In this document: positions 24,060 to 35,366 of the stretch, piece by piece | How positions within the stretch are numbered: the stretch's first letter is position 1 | Layout of the letters: each line of letters opens with the position of its first letter | NCBI RefSeq assembly: GCF_056746865.1 | Contig: NZ_CM163382.1 | Reading direction: 5' to 3' (one strand) | DNA length: 64,000 bases | Translations under genes and position numbers: made by a program | Notes under the pieces: model-generated | The model's database searches: none | What the model was told of the DNA's origin: nothing | Seen by the model: only the letters and a program-made list of their open reading frames with translations

Positions 24060-24065
24060 ATAAAA

Positions 24066-24096
24066 ATGCCCCTTCGACGAATGCGTGAAGGGGCTG
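24066..24096 (-). terminator. Rho-independent terminator after hpaC
   Basis: gccccttc..gaaggggc stem-loop directly 3-prime of the hpaC stop. Confidence 0.55.
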
Positions 24097-24100
24097 GAGC

Positions 24101-24613
24101 TTAAATCGCAGCTTCCATTTCCAGCATCACCGGATGGAAACGGCGTTTAAAGTAGATAAGTCCGTGACCTTCTGCACTGAGGATGATGTTTTTAATCTCC
24201 ACCAGATACACCAGATGTGTGCCAATTGCCTGCACATCGCGGATCTCACCTTCAAGACTGGCCAGCGAACCTTTTAGCACCGGCTGCGCCAGCGGACCTT
24301 TTTGCCAGCATGAGAGGCTAAAACGCTCTTCCATCGCCATGCCTGTCATGCCCGCGAAGTGGCGTGCCATCAGTTCCTGCTCATGGTTGAGGACGTTGAC
24401 GCACAACTTGCCGTTGCCCTGAAAAACCGGGTTCATCGCACTGTTGGCGTTAATGCACACCATCAGCGACGGTGGTGTATCCGTGACCGAGCAGACAGCC
24501 GTTGCCGTAATCCCGCATTGTCCGGTGTCGCCCTCGGTGGTGATAATATTTACCGCTGCCGACAGGCTGGCCATCGCGTCACGAAAGCGCAGGCGTTGTT
24601 CATCTAATTGCAT
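24101..24613 (-). CDS. hpaC: HpaC, NAD(P)H-flavin oxidoreductase component of 4-hydroxyphenylacetate 3-monooxygenase
   Basis: 170-aa translation; position immediately after hpaB; flavin reductase family. Confidence 0.85.
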   Translation of the reverse strand: MQLDEQRLRFRDAMASLSAAVNIITTEGDTGQCGITATAVCSVTDTPPSLMVCINANSAMNPVFQGNGKLCVNVLNHEQELMARHFAGMTGMAMEERFSLSCWQKGPLAQPVLKGSLASLEGEIRDVQAIGTHLVYLVEIKNIILSAEGHGLIYFKRRFHPVMLEMEAAI

Positions 24614-24630
24614 CTTAACCTCCTGCTGCG

Positions 24631-26193
24631 TTATTTCAGCAGCTTATCCAGCATGTTGATATCGTCGTTGTTGTGCAGGTGCGGCACAGTCCAGCCGTTC
24701 TGGTCGTATTCCGACAGGCAGCGATCAACCATCGCCATCATCTTGTCCATATTGCCGGAGCTTTGTGCCTGGCGCAGACACTGCAGGCGAATCTCATCCT
24801 GGCTACCGGAGTAGTTGATTTCATACAGTTCGTGGCGACCACCAAACTCGCTGCCAATGGCGTCCCACATCAGTTTGAGGATCTTGATGCGCTGGACGTG
24901 ATCCATACCATTCGAACCGCGCACATACTTCGCCAGATACTGGTCGATCTGCGGATTGTTCAGGTCACGGGCACTGGAAGGGAGGTAGATCAGGCCACTG
25001 GTAACGTTGCGTTCGATAATGTTTTTGATCTTCGCGTAGGCCATTGGTGCCAGTACGCGATAGGTTTGCAGTGCGGCATGATCCGGTAAATAAGCCCCGT
25101 TGACCCACGGCGTCGCTTCAGAACACATCGAGTCACTCAATGCCCAGAAGGTGTTGCGCCACGCCACCACTTCACCGAGATCGGCCTGCACACCACGGAA
25201 CTCCAGGGTGCCGGTACATTCGAGTGATTTTTTCAGCAGTGCCGTAATGAAGTCGAGTTTCACTGCCAGGCGCACACAGGCTTGCAGCGGATACATACGG
25301 GCAAAACCGCCTTCCATCGTCCAGCGACGGCAGCGATCAAAATCGCGGTAGATCAGCACGTTTTCCCATGGGATCAGCACGTTATCCATCACCAGAATCG
25401 CATCATTCTCATCGAAGCGGCTGGAGAGCGGGTAGTCATACGGTGAGCCGGTAGCACCCGCGACCATCTCATAAGAGGCGCGGGAGATTAATTTCACGCC
25501 ATCAGCATCCATTGGCGCAACGAACATCAGCGCGAAGTCCGGGTTTTCGCCCATTACTTGTGCCGAGCCGAAGCCAACCATGTTGTAGTGAGTCAGCGCC
25601 GAGTTGGTGGCAACCACTTTCGCACCGCTAACGATAATCCCGGCGTCAGTCTCTTTTTCCAGCTTGATGTAAACGTCTTTCACTTTATCGGTCGGCAAAT
25701 GACGATCGATCGGTGGGTTAACAATCGCGTGGTTAAAGTAGAGGCCAGTTTCCTGAATACGGGTATACCAGTTACGGGCGTTCTGCTCGAACTGACCGTA
25801 AAAGCCCGGATTCGCGCCCAGTGCGCAACCGAAAGCAGCTTTGTAGTCTGGGGTACGGCCCATCCAGCCATAGCTCAGGCGTGACCACTCAGCGATGGCG
25901 TCGCGTTGCTGGCGCAGGTCGTCGGCACTTTTCGCCACGCGGAAGAATTTATGGGTATAGCCGCCGCTGCCGGTGTCGGTGTTCCAACACAGAGAGTCCT
26001 GCATCTCCGGTTTGTGCAGCGCGTCGTACAGTTGGGCAACAGACGCTGCCGCATTACGAAATGCCGGATGAGTAGTGACGTCTTTCACTCGCTCGCCATA
26101 GATATAGATCTCGCGACCATCCTGCAGGCTTTTCAGATACTCTTCCCCGGTGAACGGACGTTGGGTACTGGCGCGGAAATCTTCTGGTTTCAT
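24631..26193 (-). CDS. hpaB: HpaB, 4-hydroxyphenylacetate 3-monooxygenase oxygenase component
   Basis: 520-aa translation MKPEDFRASTQRPFTGEEYLKSLQDGREIYIYGERVKDVTTHPAFRNAAASV.. Confidence 0.9.
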   Translation of the reverse strand: MKPEDFRASTQRPFTGEEYLKSLQDGREIYIYGERVKDVTTHPAFRNAAASVAQLYDALHKPEMQDSLCWNTDTGSGGYTHKFFRVAKSADDLRQQRDAIAEWSRLSYGWMGRTPDYKAAFGCALGANPGFYGQFEQNARNWYTRIQETGLYFNHAIVNPPIDRHLPTDKVKDVYIKLEKETDAGIIVSGAKVVATNSALTHYNMVGFGSAQVMGENPDFALMFVAPMDADGVKLISRASYEMVAGATGSPYDYPLSSRFDENDAILVMDNVLIPWENVLIYRDFDRCRRWTMEGGFARMYPLQACVRLAVKLDFITALLKKSLECTGTLEFRGVQADLGEVVAWRNTFWALSDSMCSEATPWVNGAYLPDHAALQTYRVLAPMAYAKIKNIIERNVTSGLIYLPSSARDLNNPQIDQYLAKYVRGSNGMDHVQRIKILKLMWDAIGSEFGGRHELYEINYSGSQDEIRLQCLRQAQSSGNMDKMMAMVDRCLSEYDQNGWTVPHLHNNDDINMLDKLLK

Positions 26194-26443
26194 GTCGACC
26201 TCTACAGTATTAATCGGAATACGATTGTTAATTTTGTGTGTTGTTTTTGTTATTCAATTGAAGCTTGCAGGGGCGATTACGGGAAGAGACTTTTGGGACA
26301 ATGGCTGGTACTTTTCAGGTCGGGTACGGTTTTGTGATCGAGGTCGCTTTTAGCGATTTTTGACGTTACTAAATCCCCTTGCTCCAGGCGGAGAAAGGGG
26401 AATAGCAGGTGGTGCCTGGTTTCCCGTTAAGGCTAAGGGATTT

Positions 26444-34560: not shown

Positions 34561-34585
34561 TACCACTCCTCGGATTCGATCATCT

Positions 34586-34610
34586 TAATCATTAATATGT
34601 TAATGATTAC
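34586..34610. promoter_or_regulatory. Palindromic operator candidate (HpaR site) in the hpaG-hpaR divergent region
   Basis: aatcattaatatgttaatgatt: AATCATTAA / TTAATGATT inverted repeat in an AT-rich divergent promoter region. Confidence 0.45.
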
Positions 34611-34831
34611 TTTTATTCCCGATTGCGTAGTTTGGCAAAAGTAAGTGATGTAAATGTGATCTAATTAACAAACTATTTACATTTGCAGGTAATAAAATAC
34701 TAAATATCAGTAAGTTAATAAAGTATGCTCAATTTTGATAAAATGAGGAATTGCGGGGATAGCTCAGTCCCGGTAACGTGATGATTAACTGTTTCTATAT
34801 TAATGATTTTGAATTTTTCAGGGGAAAGATA

Positions 34832-35278
34832 ATGCACGACTCACTAACCATTGCGTTGCTCCAGGCGCGAGAAGCGGCGATGAGTTATTTTCGCCCAATC
34901 GTTAAACGGCATAATTTGACTGAGCAACAGTGGCGCATCGTGCGTATTCTGGCGGAAAGCCCATCAATGGATTTTCACGATCTGGCGTATCGCGCCTGCA
35001 TTTTGCGCCCAAGCCTGACCGGGATCCTCACGCGGATGGAACGCGACGGTTTAGTGTTGCGATTAAAGCCGATCAATGATCAGCGGAAGCTCTATATCTC
35101 GCTGACCAAAGAGGGGCAGGCGCTGTATAACCGCGCTCAGACACAGATTGAAGAGGCCTATCGGCAGATTGAAGCTCAGTTTACTGCCGAGAAAATGCAA
35201 CAGTTAACCCATCTGTTAGAGGAATTTATTGCTCTGGGTAATTCCCGACAAGAAGACATCCCGGGCGATAATGAATAA
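34832..35278 (+). CDS. hpaR: HpaR, MarR-family repressor of the hpa meta-cleavage operon
   Basis: Translation MHDSLTIALLQAREAAMSYFRPIVKRHNLTEQQWRIVRIL.. (MarR wHTH); divergent from hpaG. Confidence 0.85.
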   Translation: MHDSLTIALLQAREAAMSYFRPIVKRHNLTEQQWRIVRILAESPSMDFHDLAYRACILRPSLTGILTRMERDGLVLRLKPINDQRKLYISLTKEGQALYNRAQTQIEEAYRQIEAQFTAEKMQQLTHLLEEFIALGNSRQEDIPGDNE

Positions 35279-35339
35279 CTTTTTAATATCTGATAACCAG
35301 CGCCTGGTTTTTCCATGGATGGCGGGTTACACCTTTTCA

Positions 35340-35366
35340 TAAAGTTTTTCCTTTCCAGGCCGAAAA
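35340..35366 (+). promoter_or_regulatory. Sigma-28 (FliA) class III flagellar/chemotaxis promoter of tsr
   Basis: TAAAGTTT-N11-GCCGAAAA matches the sigma-28 consensus TAAAGTTT-N11-GCCGATAA, ~30 nt upstream of the tsr ATG. Confidence 0.65.

What the first reader, a model, noticed from the sequence alone, without database searches (positions are those of the whole stretch)
24060..35340. 11-kb hpa catabolic island inserted between btsT and tsr
hpaC, hpaB, hpaA, hpaX, hpaI, hpaH, hpaF, hpaD, hpaE, hpaG and hpaR occupy the space where, from memory, K-12 has btsT directly next to tsr. The insertion sits between the btsT CRP site and the sigma-28 promoter of tsr, so the island's right edge is within ~60 bp of a flagellar-regulon promoter. 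I found no flanking direct repeats, integrase or IS remnants, so the acquisition mechanism is unclear.
Basis: partly seen in the sequence, partly recalled or inferred. Interest (0 to 1): 0.5.

Follow-up and report, generated by a model that had tools for sequence, protein, structure and literature searches.

The report
Ancestral hpa gene cluster, not insertion
The 11-kb block is the well-known E. coli gene cluster for growth on 4-hydroxyphenylacetate, and it sits in its old, inherited place between btsT and tsr, so K-12 and about half of E. coli strains lost it rather than this strain gaining it.

Summary
Window 24,101-35,278 carries eleven intact hpa genes (hpaC, B, A, X, I, H, F, D, E, G and R). 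All eleven score above the curated NCBIfam cut-offs. They lie between a perfect CRP site upstream of btsT (24,044-24,059) and the sigma-28 promoter of tsr (35,340-35,366). K-12 has only a 377-bp spacer there.

The "insertion" reading does not hold. The order yjiA-yjiX-btsT-hpaC...hpaG-hpaR-tsr recurs in Enterobacter, Lelliottia, Citrobacter and Pseudocitrobacter. The btsT side also recurs in Klebsiella and Raoultella, and the tsr side in a non-coli Escherichia. The hpa genes are as diverged from those genera (76-89% nt) as the flanking core genes are (78-89%). There is no integrase, IS element, tRNA gene or flanking repeat, and G+C matches the flanks.

Among 5,426 complete E. coli genomes the btsT-tsr interval has five states:
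- K-12-type short spacer: 2,752 genomes
- hpa cluster: about 2,064
- an O157-type 180-aa ORF: 360
- a 5.8-kb D-amino-acid-like cluster: about 160
- a hydroxyproline-like cluster plus that D-amino-acid-like cluster: 35

In Klebsiella the hpa and D-amino-acid-like clusters lie side by side. This fits differential loss from an older, longer array.

The cluster itself, its absence from K-12, and the suggestion that K-12 lost it are all already published. Interest is low.

The parts
21558..23708 (-). btsT (yjiY), pyruvate/H+ symporter; conserved left flank
   Evidence: RefSeq annotation of the identical 118UI record. Present next to hpaC in 19 loci of other genera.
23724..23853 (.). ERIC/IRU-type repeat inserted in the btsT leader, 15 nt upstream of the start codon. 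It is not part of the hpa block but is linked to the hpa allele in E. coli.
   Evidence: Absent from the K-12, O157, WW2 and FG92-1 alleles and from all other genera. A second copy lies at window 15567-15639, and copies occur in Photorhabdus loci. It folds into a long hairpin, -53 kcal/mol, z = -6.1. All five hpa+ E. coli loci have the same 392-bp btsT-hpaC spacer.
23854..23998 (-). btsT upstream regulatory region shared by all E. coli alleles
   Evidence: 93-98% identical in the K-12, O157 and WW2 alleles and recognisable in Citrobacter, Klebsiella and Raoultella.
23999..24043 (.). Allele-specific stretch upstream of the CRP site. The hpa-type and D-aa-type alleles share it; the K-12 and O157 forms differ strongly.
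   Evidence: Alignments. The hpa-type motif GAGCGGTTGGGCAAGA matches Klebsiella, Raoultella and Pseudocitrobacter.
24044..24059 (.). CRP-type palindrome TGTGATTGAGATCACA upstream of btsT
   Evidence: Single match in the window, 0.07 expected. Identical in 8 of the 11 outgroup sequences aligned (the Pseudocitrobacter, Klebsiella and Raoultella loci and two Enterobacter loci); the Citrobacter loci and Enterobacter RIT418 differ by 1-3 bases. K-12 has TGTGATTCATATCACA and O157 has TGTGATGATGATCACA.
24062..24094 (-). Intrinsic terminator of hpaBC (stem GCCCCTTC/GAAGGGGC followed by a U-tract)
   Evidence: Fold of -18 kcal/mol, z = -3.7. The same stem with a different loop follows the deaminase gene in the D-aa allele.
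24101..26193 (-). hpaB-hpaC: two-component 4-HPA 3-monooxygenase (oxygenase HpaB 24631-26193, flavin reductase HpaC 24101-24613)
   Evidence: TIGR02310 1109 bits against a cut-off of 885; NF012030 384 bits against 315. HpaB has Arg379.
26444..28720 (-). hpaX (27344-28720, 4-HPA permease) and hpaA (26444-27334, AraC-family activator)
   Evidence: TIGR02332 890 bits against 615; TIGR02297 385 bits against 275.
28761..28898 (.). REP/BIME-like repeat pair in the hpaX-hpaI spacer
   Evidence: Direct repeat family D3 and inverted repeat I25. The motifs GCCTTATCCGG and GCCGGAT are visible in the repeat copies listed.
28895..34560 (-). hpaGEDFHI meta-cleavage operon: hpaG 33271-34560, hpaE 31808-33274, hpaD 30955-31806, hpaF 30565-30945, hpaH 29694-30497, hpaI 28895-29683
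   Evidence: All six proteins match their equivalog models above cut-off.
34561..34831 (.). Divergent hpaG/hpaR control region, AT-rich
   Evidence: G+C falls to 0.43-0.48 here. Positions 29-121 are conserved in most other genera. The operator and promoter assignments come from the literature and were not tested here.
34832..35278 (+). hpaR, MarR-family repressor of the meta operon
   Evidence: TIGR02337 201 bits against a cut-off of 121. Pfam MarR.
35279..35335 (+). hpaR-tsr spacer; right end of the variable segment
   Evidence: 94% identical in the non-coli Escherichia L006. Homology with K-12 resumes at 35336. It holds only a weak hairpin, z = -0.65.
35340..35366 (+). sigma-28 (FliA) promoter consensus of tsr
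   Evidence: Single exact match, 0 expected. Retained in all E. coli alleles and downstream of hpaR in Enterobacter and Lelliottia.
35397..37061 (+). tsr, serine chemoreceptor; conserved right flank
   Evidence: NF011615 1222 bits against a cut-off of 947. Annotation.

Best explanation
Window 24,060-35,335 is the chromosomal hpa cluster of E. coli, first described in strains W, B and C. What the genes do comes from the literature on strain W and from family assignment; it was not tested here. HpaX imports 3- or 4-hydroxyphenylacetate and HpaBC hydroxylates it to homoprotocatechuate. HpaD, E, F, G, H and I then open the ring by meta-cleavage and convert it to pyruvate and succinic semialdehyde. 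HpaA (AraC family) activates hpaBC, and HpaR (MarR family) represses hpaGEDFHI. The cluster was not inserted into a K-12-like site. The arrangement btsT-hpa-tsr was inherited from the common ancestor of Escherichia and its neighbouring enterobacterial genera. In E. coli the btsT-tsr interval is a polymorphic locus with five main states: hpa; a D-amino-acid-like cluster; a hydroxyproline-like cluster plus that D-amino-acid-like cluster; a small orphan ORF; and a short K-12-type spacer. These states are best read as different remnants or replacements of an older, longer array of catabolic modules, moved between lineages by ordinary homologous recombination in the conserved flanks. The variable segment ends at the regulatory elements of the flanking genes, the btsT CRP site and the tsr sigma-28 promoter, which every allele keeps. 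Shown here: gene content, junctions, allele frequencies, cross-genus synteny and divergence parity. Inferred: the deletion or replacement history and the role of flank recombination.
For: (1) All 11 proteins are full-length equivalog matches.
(2) hpaC lies next to btsT-yjiX-yjiA in 19 loci from Pseudocitrobacter, Klebsiella, Raoultella, Enterobacter, Citrobacter and Lelliottia. hpaR lies next to tsr in Enterobacter, Lelliottia, Citrobacter sp. 18056 and a non-coli Escherichia (L006, at most 91.4% identical to any complete E. coli genome). In Pseudocitrobacter tsr lies about 3.3 kb from hpaR.
(3) Nucleotide identity to those genera is 76-89% for hpa genes and 78-89% for yjiA, yjiX, btsT and tsr.
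(4) The hpa-type CRP site and the adjacent motif match the outgroup form, whereas the K-12 and O157 forms differ.
(5) G+C is 0.545 for the block against 0.553 and 0.540 for the flanks, and GC3 is in the same range.
(6) No integrase, IS element or tRNA gene and no edge repeat of 8 nt or more. 'Plasmid' records that carry hpa are chromosome pieces with the same flanks.
(7) hpa alleles within E. coli differ by 2-3% from the window, at least as much as the flanks do at 1-2%. The cluster occurs in phylogroup D (118UI is ST69, PMC8900328) and in phylogroups A, B1 and C (PMC12444784).
(8) Allele counts: 2,752 K-12-type, about 2,064 hpa, 360 O157-type, about 160 D-aa-type and 35 hyp+D-aa-type.
(9) The D-aa module lies directly beside hpaR in Klebsiella, Raoultella, Leclercia and one Enterobacter, in the same orientation as in the E. 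coli D-aa allele.
(10) PMC7201708, citing Diaz et al. 2001, already proposes loss of hpa in K-12.
Against: No E. albertii, E. fergusonii or E. marmotae representative appeared among the 80 best HpaH loci. Most other Escherichia species may therefore lack hpa, which leaves room for loss and later re-entry within the genus. Published data report hpa absent from phylogroups B2 and G (PMC12444784). The K-12-type spacer is not a clean deletion product. It holds about 130 bp with no detectable homolog in any other allele or genus, and its CRP-site region is a diverged version, so its origin is unexplained. No E. coli genome with hpa and the D-aa cluster together was found, so the 'older composite array' rests on other genera only. 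Identity to L006 is about 95% across hpa but 82-84% across lgoT-lgoR, which could indicate exchange of hpa between Escherichia species.
Confidence: 0.8

Rival explanations
1. One reading: hpa is a horizontally acquired catabolic island that was inserted between btsT and tsr of a K-12-like ancestor by an unknown mechanism.
For: K-12 and 2,752 other genomes have only a short spacer at the site. hpa is reported absent from phylogroups B2 and G (PMC12444784). Most other Escherichia species representatives did not appear in the HpaH scan.
Against: The same btsT-hpa-tsr order occurs in at least six other genera and, on the tsr side, in a second Escherichia species. Divergence equals that of the flanks and G+C equals that of the flanks. 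There are no mobility genes or target-site repeats. The hpa-type junction sequence is the outgroup-like one. The K-12 spacer contains its own unique 130 bp, so it is not an unoccupied target site.
Confidence: 0.05
2. hpa was lost early in E. coli or in the genus and later re-entered some phylogroups. Re-entry would have been by homologous recombination of the whole btsT-hpa-tsr segment from another Escherichia lineage, so the present distribution reflects allele flow rather than repeated loss.
For: Identity to the non-coli Escherichia L006 is uniform at about 95% across both fast- and slow-evolving hpa genes, but drops to 87-90% in tsr and 82-84% in lgoT-lgoR. Inter-genus recombination inside the cluster is demonstrable: a Pseudocitrobacter patch reaches 91-98% identity, and hpaF has two forms in E. 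coli that share only 80% identity. The left-flank haplotype of the hpa-less allele is 99.4-99.8% identical between K-12 (phylogroup A) and ST131 (B2), which shows that alleles at this locus do travel.
Against: hpa alleles in E. coli are already 2-3% apart. They occur on both sides of the usual E. coli root, in phylogroup D and in A, B1 and C. All hpa+ loci examined share the same ERIC insertion and the same junctions, so they form one old allele class.
Confidence: 0.13
3. The btsT-tsr interval is an active insertion hotspot. The hpa, D-aa, hyp and O157-ORF segments were each inserted independently by a site-specific mechanism that targets the region between the CRP site and the sigma-28 promoter.
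For: Five different contents share nearly the same boundaries. The hpaC and deaminase terminators have an identical stem with different loops.
Against: No recombinase, att-like repeat or tRNA gene is present in any allele. hpa and D-aa are neighbours in the same orientation in Klebsiella, Raoultella and Leclercia. The left boundaries are not identical: the allele-specific sequence begins at 23999, before the CRP site.
Confidence: 0.02

Closest known systems
hpa cluster of E. coli W ATCC 11105, B and C (Prieto, Diaz & Garcia 1996; reviewed by Diaz et al. 2001; both cited from memory because neither paper is held in the library)
   Same: The same eleven genes in the same order and orientation, 96.7-98.4% nt identity to other E. 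coli hpa clusters, and the same location between btsT (yjiY) and tsr. HpaB carries Arg379, the form that PMC7201708 reports as allowing use of 3-HPA as well as 4-HPA.
   Different: Nothing of substance. This is the phylogroup D (ST69) allele. Its hpaF is of the type shared with EcPF16 and the non-coli Escherichia L006, 80% identical to the hpaF of MEI4B and 98E11.
hpa clusters of Klebsiella, Raoultella, Enterobacter and Citrobacter at the btsT locus
   Same: Orthologous genes in the same order, next to btsT-yjiX-yjiA, with the CRP palindrome upstream of btsT; the palindrome is identical in most of these loci.
   Different: 76-89% nt identity. HpaG matched over its full length in only some of the Klebsiella/Raoultella loci, and K. 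pneumoniae annotates two FAH-family genes in its place. The D-amino-acid-like module follows hpaR in Klebsiella, Raoultella and Leclercia, where E. coli has tsr. Their terminators differ from the E. coli one and they lack the ERIC element.
Salmonella enterica hpa cluster
   Same: The same enzymes at 77-98% amino-acid identity.
   Different: It is not flanked by btsT or tsr within 10 kb, and hpaBC has moved next to hpaR (L015).
Regions of genomic plasticity, or integration hotspots, between conserved core genes in E. coli (Touchon et al. 2009; cited from memory)
   Same: Alternative gene sets between the same two core genes, with no mobility genes and with exchange through flank homology.
   Different: At this site the commonest 'cargo', hpa, is the ancestral occupant rather than an import, and two of the modules are neighbours in other genera.

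Membership tests
E. coli hpa (homoprotocatechuate meta-cleavage) 4-HPA catabolic cluster | All eleven genes (hpaR, G, E, D, F, H, I, X, A, B, C) present and intact | tested here: met
   Each protein matches its NCBIfam equivalog model end to end and above the curated cut-off. No internal stops.
E. coli hpa (homoprotocatechuate meta-cleavage) 4-HPA catabolic cluster | Canonical organisation: hpaR divergent from hpaGEDFHI, followed by hpaX-hpaA and hpaBC | tested here: met
   Coordinates and strands are identical to those of four other hpa+ E. coli.
E. coli hpa (homoprotocatechuate meta-cleavage) 4-HPA catabolic cluster | Chromosomal location between btsT (yjiY) and tsr | tested here: met
   About 2,064 genomes share this location.
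E. coli hpa (homoprotocatechuate meta-cleavage) 4-HPA catabolic cluster | Confers growth on 3- and 4-hydroxyphenylacetate | not testable with these tools
   Needs a growth assay of 118UI and an hpa deletion mutant. Only the Arg379 form of HpaB was checked.
Horizontally acquired genomic island | Integrase or recombinase, tRNA or other attachment site, flanking direct repeats | tested here: not met
   No such ORF. No edge repeat of 8 nt or more. No Rfam match, which would include tRNA or tmRNA genes, in 21-38 kb.
Horizontally acquired genomic island | Base composition different from the flanking core genome | tested here: not met
   G+C is 0.545 against 0.553 and 0.540 for the flanks. GC3 is 0.57-0.71 against 0.60-0.69.
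Horizontally acquired genomic island | Absent from the homologous site in related species and genera | tested here: not met
   Present at the same site in at least six genera and, on the tsr side, in a second Escherichia species.
Polymorphic core-flanked plasticity region | Several alternative gene contents between the same conserved flanking genes within one species | tested here: met
   Five states were counted in 5,426 genomes.
Polymorphic core-flanked plasticity region | Alleles exchanged by homologous recombination in the flanks | tested here: inconclusive
   The left-flank haplotype clusters with the hpa-less state across phylogroups A and B2 (99.4-99.8%), whereas the right flank does not cluster by state. 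Only 12 loci were compared, and no formal recombination test was run.

The most novel reading that the evidence does not exclude
The btsT-tsr interval may be the remnant of an ancestral array of catabolic modules, with the aromatic-acid (hpa) and D-amino-acid modules still side by side in Klebsiella. In E. coli it has resolved into mutually exclusive alleles: hpa, D-aa, hyp+D-aa, an orphan ORF, or a 130-bp filler of unknown origin. These alleles would be old, would move between phylogroups by flank recombination, and would be kept by niche-dependent selection. Their limits would be pinned by the btsT CRP site and the tsr sigma-28 promoter, and allele-specific leader changes (the ERIC element, a different CRP half-site spacer) could alter btsT or tsr expression.
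Probability: 0.4. Interest if true: 0.3.

Novelty: already known. Interest (0 to 1): 0.15.

Why it matters
For genome annotation, a presence/absence difference from K-12 should not be read as an insertion. K-12 is the derived state here. For E. coli biology the matter is modest. hpa lets a strain use 3- and 4-hydroxyphenylacetate, which are gut products of tyrosine and flavonoid breakdown, and its phylogroup-structured distribution has already been linked to niche differences (PMC12444784). The five-state locus, and the adjacency of the hpa and D-amino-acid modules in Klebsiella, make a tidy example of differential loss looking like island gain. None of this changes current understanding.

Tried and rejected
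- **Primary papers:** I tried to read Diaz et al. 2001 and Prieto et al. 1996. Neither is held, so statements about operon regulation rest on memory and on secondary citation in PMC7201708.
- **Origin of the K-12 filler:** blastn with word size 7 and Smith-Waterman with shuffle controls found no homolog of the 130-bp K-12-specific filler. I searched the hpa block, the O157 insert, the D-aa cluster and all 80 outgroup loci.
- **Edge repeats:** the two edges of the hpa block share only a 7-mer, which is chance level.
- **Rfam:** no family match in window 21-38 kb.
- **O157 180-aa ORF:** no Pfam or NCBIfam family, and only a weak PADLOC orphan-methyltransferase match (E = 9e-4), which I did not trust.
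- **Plasmid carriage of hpa:** rejected. The records are chromosome pieces or whole chromosomes labelled as plasmids.
- **A composite hpa + D-aa allele in E. coli:** none found. 160 + 35 of the 196 D-aa genomes are accounted for by the two other junction types.
- **Mis-sent query:** one search was meant to be a chimeric hpaR+deaminase query but was sent with the hpaR part only. It gave only the hpaR count (2,072 genomes).
- **WW2 allele as a simple deletion:** I considered that it arose by deletion between two identical terminators. I dropped this because the last ~36 nt of its deaminase gene also differ at every synonymous site from the FG92-1 form.

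
Full report
**What is there.** Window 24,101-35,278 contains eleven intact genes. Ten are on the minus strand (hpaC, B, A, X, I, H, F, D, E, G) and hpaR is on the plus strand. Every product matches its NCBIfam equivalog model over its full length and above the curated cut-off. The window is 100% identical to the chromosome of E. coli 118UI, a urinary isolate, where RefSeq annotates the same genes. 118UI is ST69, phylogroup D (PMC8900328, Table 2). K-12 has btsT and tsr separated by 377 bp.

**Junctions.**
- Left side: all E. coli alleles share the btsT leader up to window 23,998. An allele-specific stretch follows, and every allele keeps a CRP-type palindrome. In the window it is TGTGATTGAGATCACA at 24,044-24,059, the only match in 64 kb against 0.07 expected.
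- A hairpin followed by a U-tract at 24,062-24,094 terminates hpaBC.
- Right side: hpaR ends at 35,278. Homology with K-12 resumes at 35,336. The sigma-28 consensus TAAAGTTT-N11-GCCGAAAA occupies 35,340-35,366, the only match against 0 expected.
- The two edges share no repeat of 8 nt or more, and there is no integrase, IS element or tRNA gene.
One is a 130-bp ERIC-type element in the btsT leader at 23,724-23,853; it has a second copy at 15,567-15,639 and folds into a hairpin of -53 kcal/mol. The other is a REP/BIME pair between hpaX and hpaI at 28,761-28,898.

**Population survey.** Among 5,426 complete E. coli genomes the interval has five main states:

| State of the btsT-tsr interval | Genomes |
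|---|---|
| K-12-type 377-bp spacer | 2,752 |
| hpa cluster | 2,063-2,072 |
| O157:H7-type insert with a 180-aa orphan ORF | 360 |
| 5.8-kb cluster: amino-acid deaminase, N-acyl-D-amino-acid deacylase-like amidohydrolase, RidA, sodium:solute symporter, RpiR regulator | about 160 |
| 16-kb array: hydroxyproline-like catabolic cluster plus an Ldh-family gene plus the 5.8-kb cluster | 35 |

These sum to about 5,371 genomes. Absence of hpa is therefore not peculiar to K-12.

**Direction of the event.** A scan of one genome per bacterial species with HpaH, followed by mapping of the window's proteins onto the 80 best loci, gave the key result.
- hpaC is followed by btsT-yjiX-yjiA in 19 loci. These come from Pseudocitrobacter, Klebsiella, Raoultella, Enterobacter, Citrobacter and Lelliottia.
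- hpaR is adjacent to tsr in Enterobacter, Lelliottia, Citrobacter sp. 18056 and one Escherichia genome. In Pseudocitrobacter tsr lies about 3.3 kb from hpaR. That Escherichia genome is at most 91.4% identical to any complete E. coli genome, so it belongs to another species.
- Nucleotide identity between the window and these genera is 76-89% for hpa genes and 78-89% for yjiA, yjiX, btsT and tsr.
- The hpa-type CRP site and the neighbouring motif match the outgroup form, whereas the K-12 and O157 versions differ.
- G+C is 0.545 for the block against 0.553 and 0.540 for the flanks, and GC3 lies in the same range.
- Within E. coli, hpa alleles differ from the window by 2-3%, at least as much as the flanks do.
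- Published work finds hpaB in phylogroups A, B1 and C and not in B2 or G (PMC12444784). The window adds phylogroup D.

Together these results show that btsT-hpa-tsr is inherited synteny and that the hpa-less states are derived. PMC7201708, citing Diaz et al. 2001, already suggests loss in K-12.

**A wider array.** Records labelled as plasmids that carry hpa turned out to be chromosome pieces with the same flanks. They revealed something else. In K. pneumoniae the order is btsT-hpa-hpaR-Ldh-deaminase-D-aminoacylase-RidA-symporter-(two genes)-RpiR. The same D-amino-acid-like module lies beside hpaR in other Klebsiella, in Raoultella, in Leclercia and in one Enterobacter. Its orientation there matches that of the E. 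coli D-aa allele. So two of the E. coli 'alternative cargos' are neighbours elsewhere. This favours differential loss from a longer ancestral array over independent insertions. No complete E. coli genome was found with both modules.

**What remains unexplained.**
- The K-12-type spacer is not a clean deletion. It holds about 130 bp (G+C 0.32) with no detectable relative in any allele or genus.
- Its left flank forms a tight haplotype, 99.4-99.8% identical between K-12 (phylogroup A) and ST131 (B2), while its right flank does not. This suggests the hpa-less allele has spread by recombination.
- The D-aa allele shares the hpa-type leader through the left arm of the terminator, has a different loop, and has the same right arm. 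The last ~36 nt of its deaminase gene also differ at every synonymous site from the form in the 16-kb allele. This is a mosaic junction that I cannot resolve.
- Other Escherichia species representatives did not appear among the best HpaH loci. Identity to the non-coli Escherichia is about 95% across hpa but 82-84% in lgoT-lgoR. Loss and re-entry within the genus therefore cannot be excluded.

**Recombination inside the cluster.** Pseudocitrobacter vendiensis is 91-98% identical to the window across hpaI-hpaH and hpaD-hpaE-hpaG, but only 79-87% identical in the flanks. E. coli itself has two hpaF forms that are 80% identical. One of them is 93% identical to Pseudocitrobacter hpaF.

**How it works.** This part rests on the literature on E. 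coli W and on family assignment; it was not tested here. HpaX imports 3- or 4-HPA. HpaBC, a two-component flavin monooxygenase, makes homoprotocatechuate. HpaD opens the ring, and HpaE, F, G, H and I convert the product to pyruvate and succinic semialdehyde. HpaA activates hpaBC and HpaR represses hpaGEDFHI. HpaB has Arg379, the form that PMC7201708 reports as allowing use of 3-HPA as well as 4-HPA.

**Verdict.** The five-state structure of the locus and the hpa/D-aa adjacency in Klebsiella are useful context rather than a discovery.

Noticed in passing
window 23724-23853 (second copy at window 15567-15639): A 130-bp ERIC/IRU-type repeat is inserted in the btsT leader, 15 nt upstream of the start codon. 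It is present in all five hpa+ E. coli loci examined and absent from the other four alleles and from other genera. It could affect btsT mRNA.
   Followed up: partly
window 30565-30945 (hpaF); L086 9709-10089: hpaF has two forms within E. coli that share only 80% nt identity. The MEI4B/98E11 form is 93% identical to Pseudocitrobacter hpaF. The window's form matches EcPF16 and the non-coli Escherichia L006.
   Followed up: partly
window 28700-30500 and 31100-34100; L005: Pseudocitrobacter vendiensis is 91-98% identical to the window across hpaI-hpaH and hpaD-hpaE-hpaG, but only 79-87% identical in btsT, yjiA and tsr. This looks like a recent recombination patch between genera.
   Followed up: partly
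L095 4517-20870 (E. coli FG92-1): A fifth allele of the btsT-tsr interval. It is a 16-kb array of a hydroxyproline-like catabolic cluster (epimerase, three oxidoreductase subunits, AraC regulator, DHDPS-family enzyme, aldehyde dehydrogenase, APC permease), an Ldh-family gene and the D-amino-acid-like cluster. It occurs in 35 genomes, all at least 99% identical.
   Followed up: partly
L096 8854-28793 (K. pneumoniae CP125156); L094: In K. pneumoniae the hpa cluster and the D-amino-acid-like cluster lie side by side next to btsT. Both records are filed as plasmids in PLSDB but are chromosomal (one is 5.37 Mb).
   Followed up: yes
L003 3940-3996 versus window 24060-24103 and L095 14960-15000: The terminator after the deaminase gene in the D-aa allele has the same stem and U-tract as the hpaC terminator but a different loop. 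The last ~36 nt of that deaminase gene differ at every synonymous site from the 16-kb-allele form (GACACTCTCTTCTAA versus GATACGCTGTTTTGA, both encoding DTLF*).
   Followed up: partly
L002 3893-4025 (K-12 spacer): About 130 bp of AT-rich sequence (G+C 0.32) is specific to the K-12-type allele and has no homolog in any other allele or genus examined. Its CRP site sits in a 30-nt near-perfect palindrome. A second sub-allele about 96% identical exists (KKa019).
   Followed up: partly
L004 4002-4544 (O157:H7): An orphan 180-aa ORF lies in an AT-rich 0.8-kb insert (G+C 0.35) in 360 genomes, mostly O157:H7 and O55:H7. It has no Pfam or NCBIfam family.
   Followed up: partly
window 37110-38471: lgoT (L-galactonate transporter) carries an internal stop at codon 279 in this strain and is annotated as a pseudogene in 118UI.
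   Followed up: no
window 35397-37061: tsr is 554 codons here and in most alleles, but 551 codons in K-12 and in one D-aa-allele strain (2017-02-2CC). This is a small in-frame length difference.
   Followed up: no
E. coli genomes: One complete 'E. coli' genome has an hpaR region only 80-90% identical to the window, far outside the 95-100% range of the other 2,071. It may be a cryptic lineage or an imported allele.
   Followed up: no
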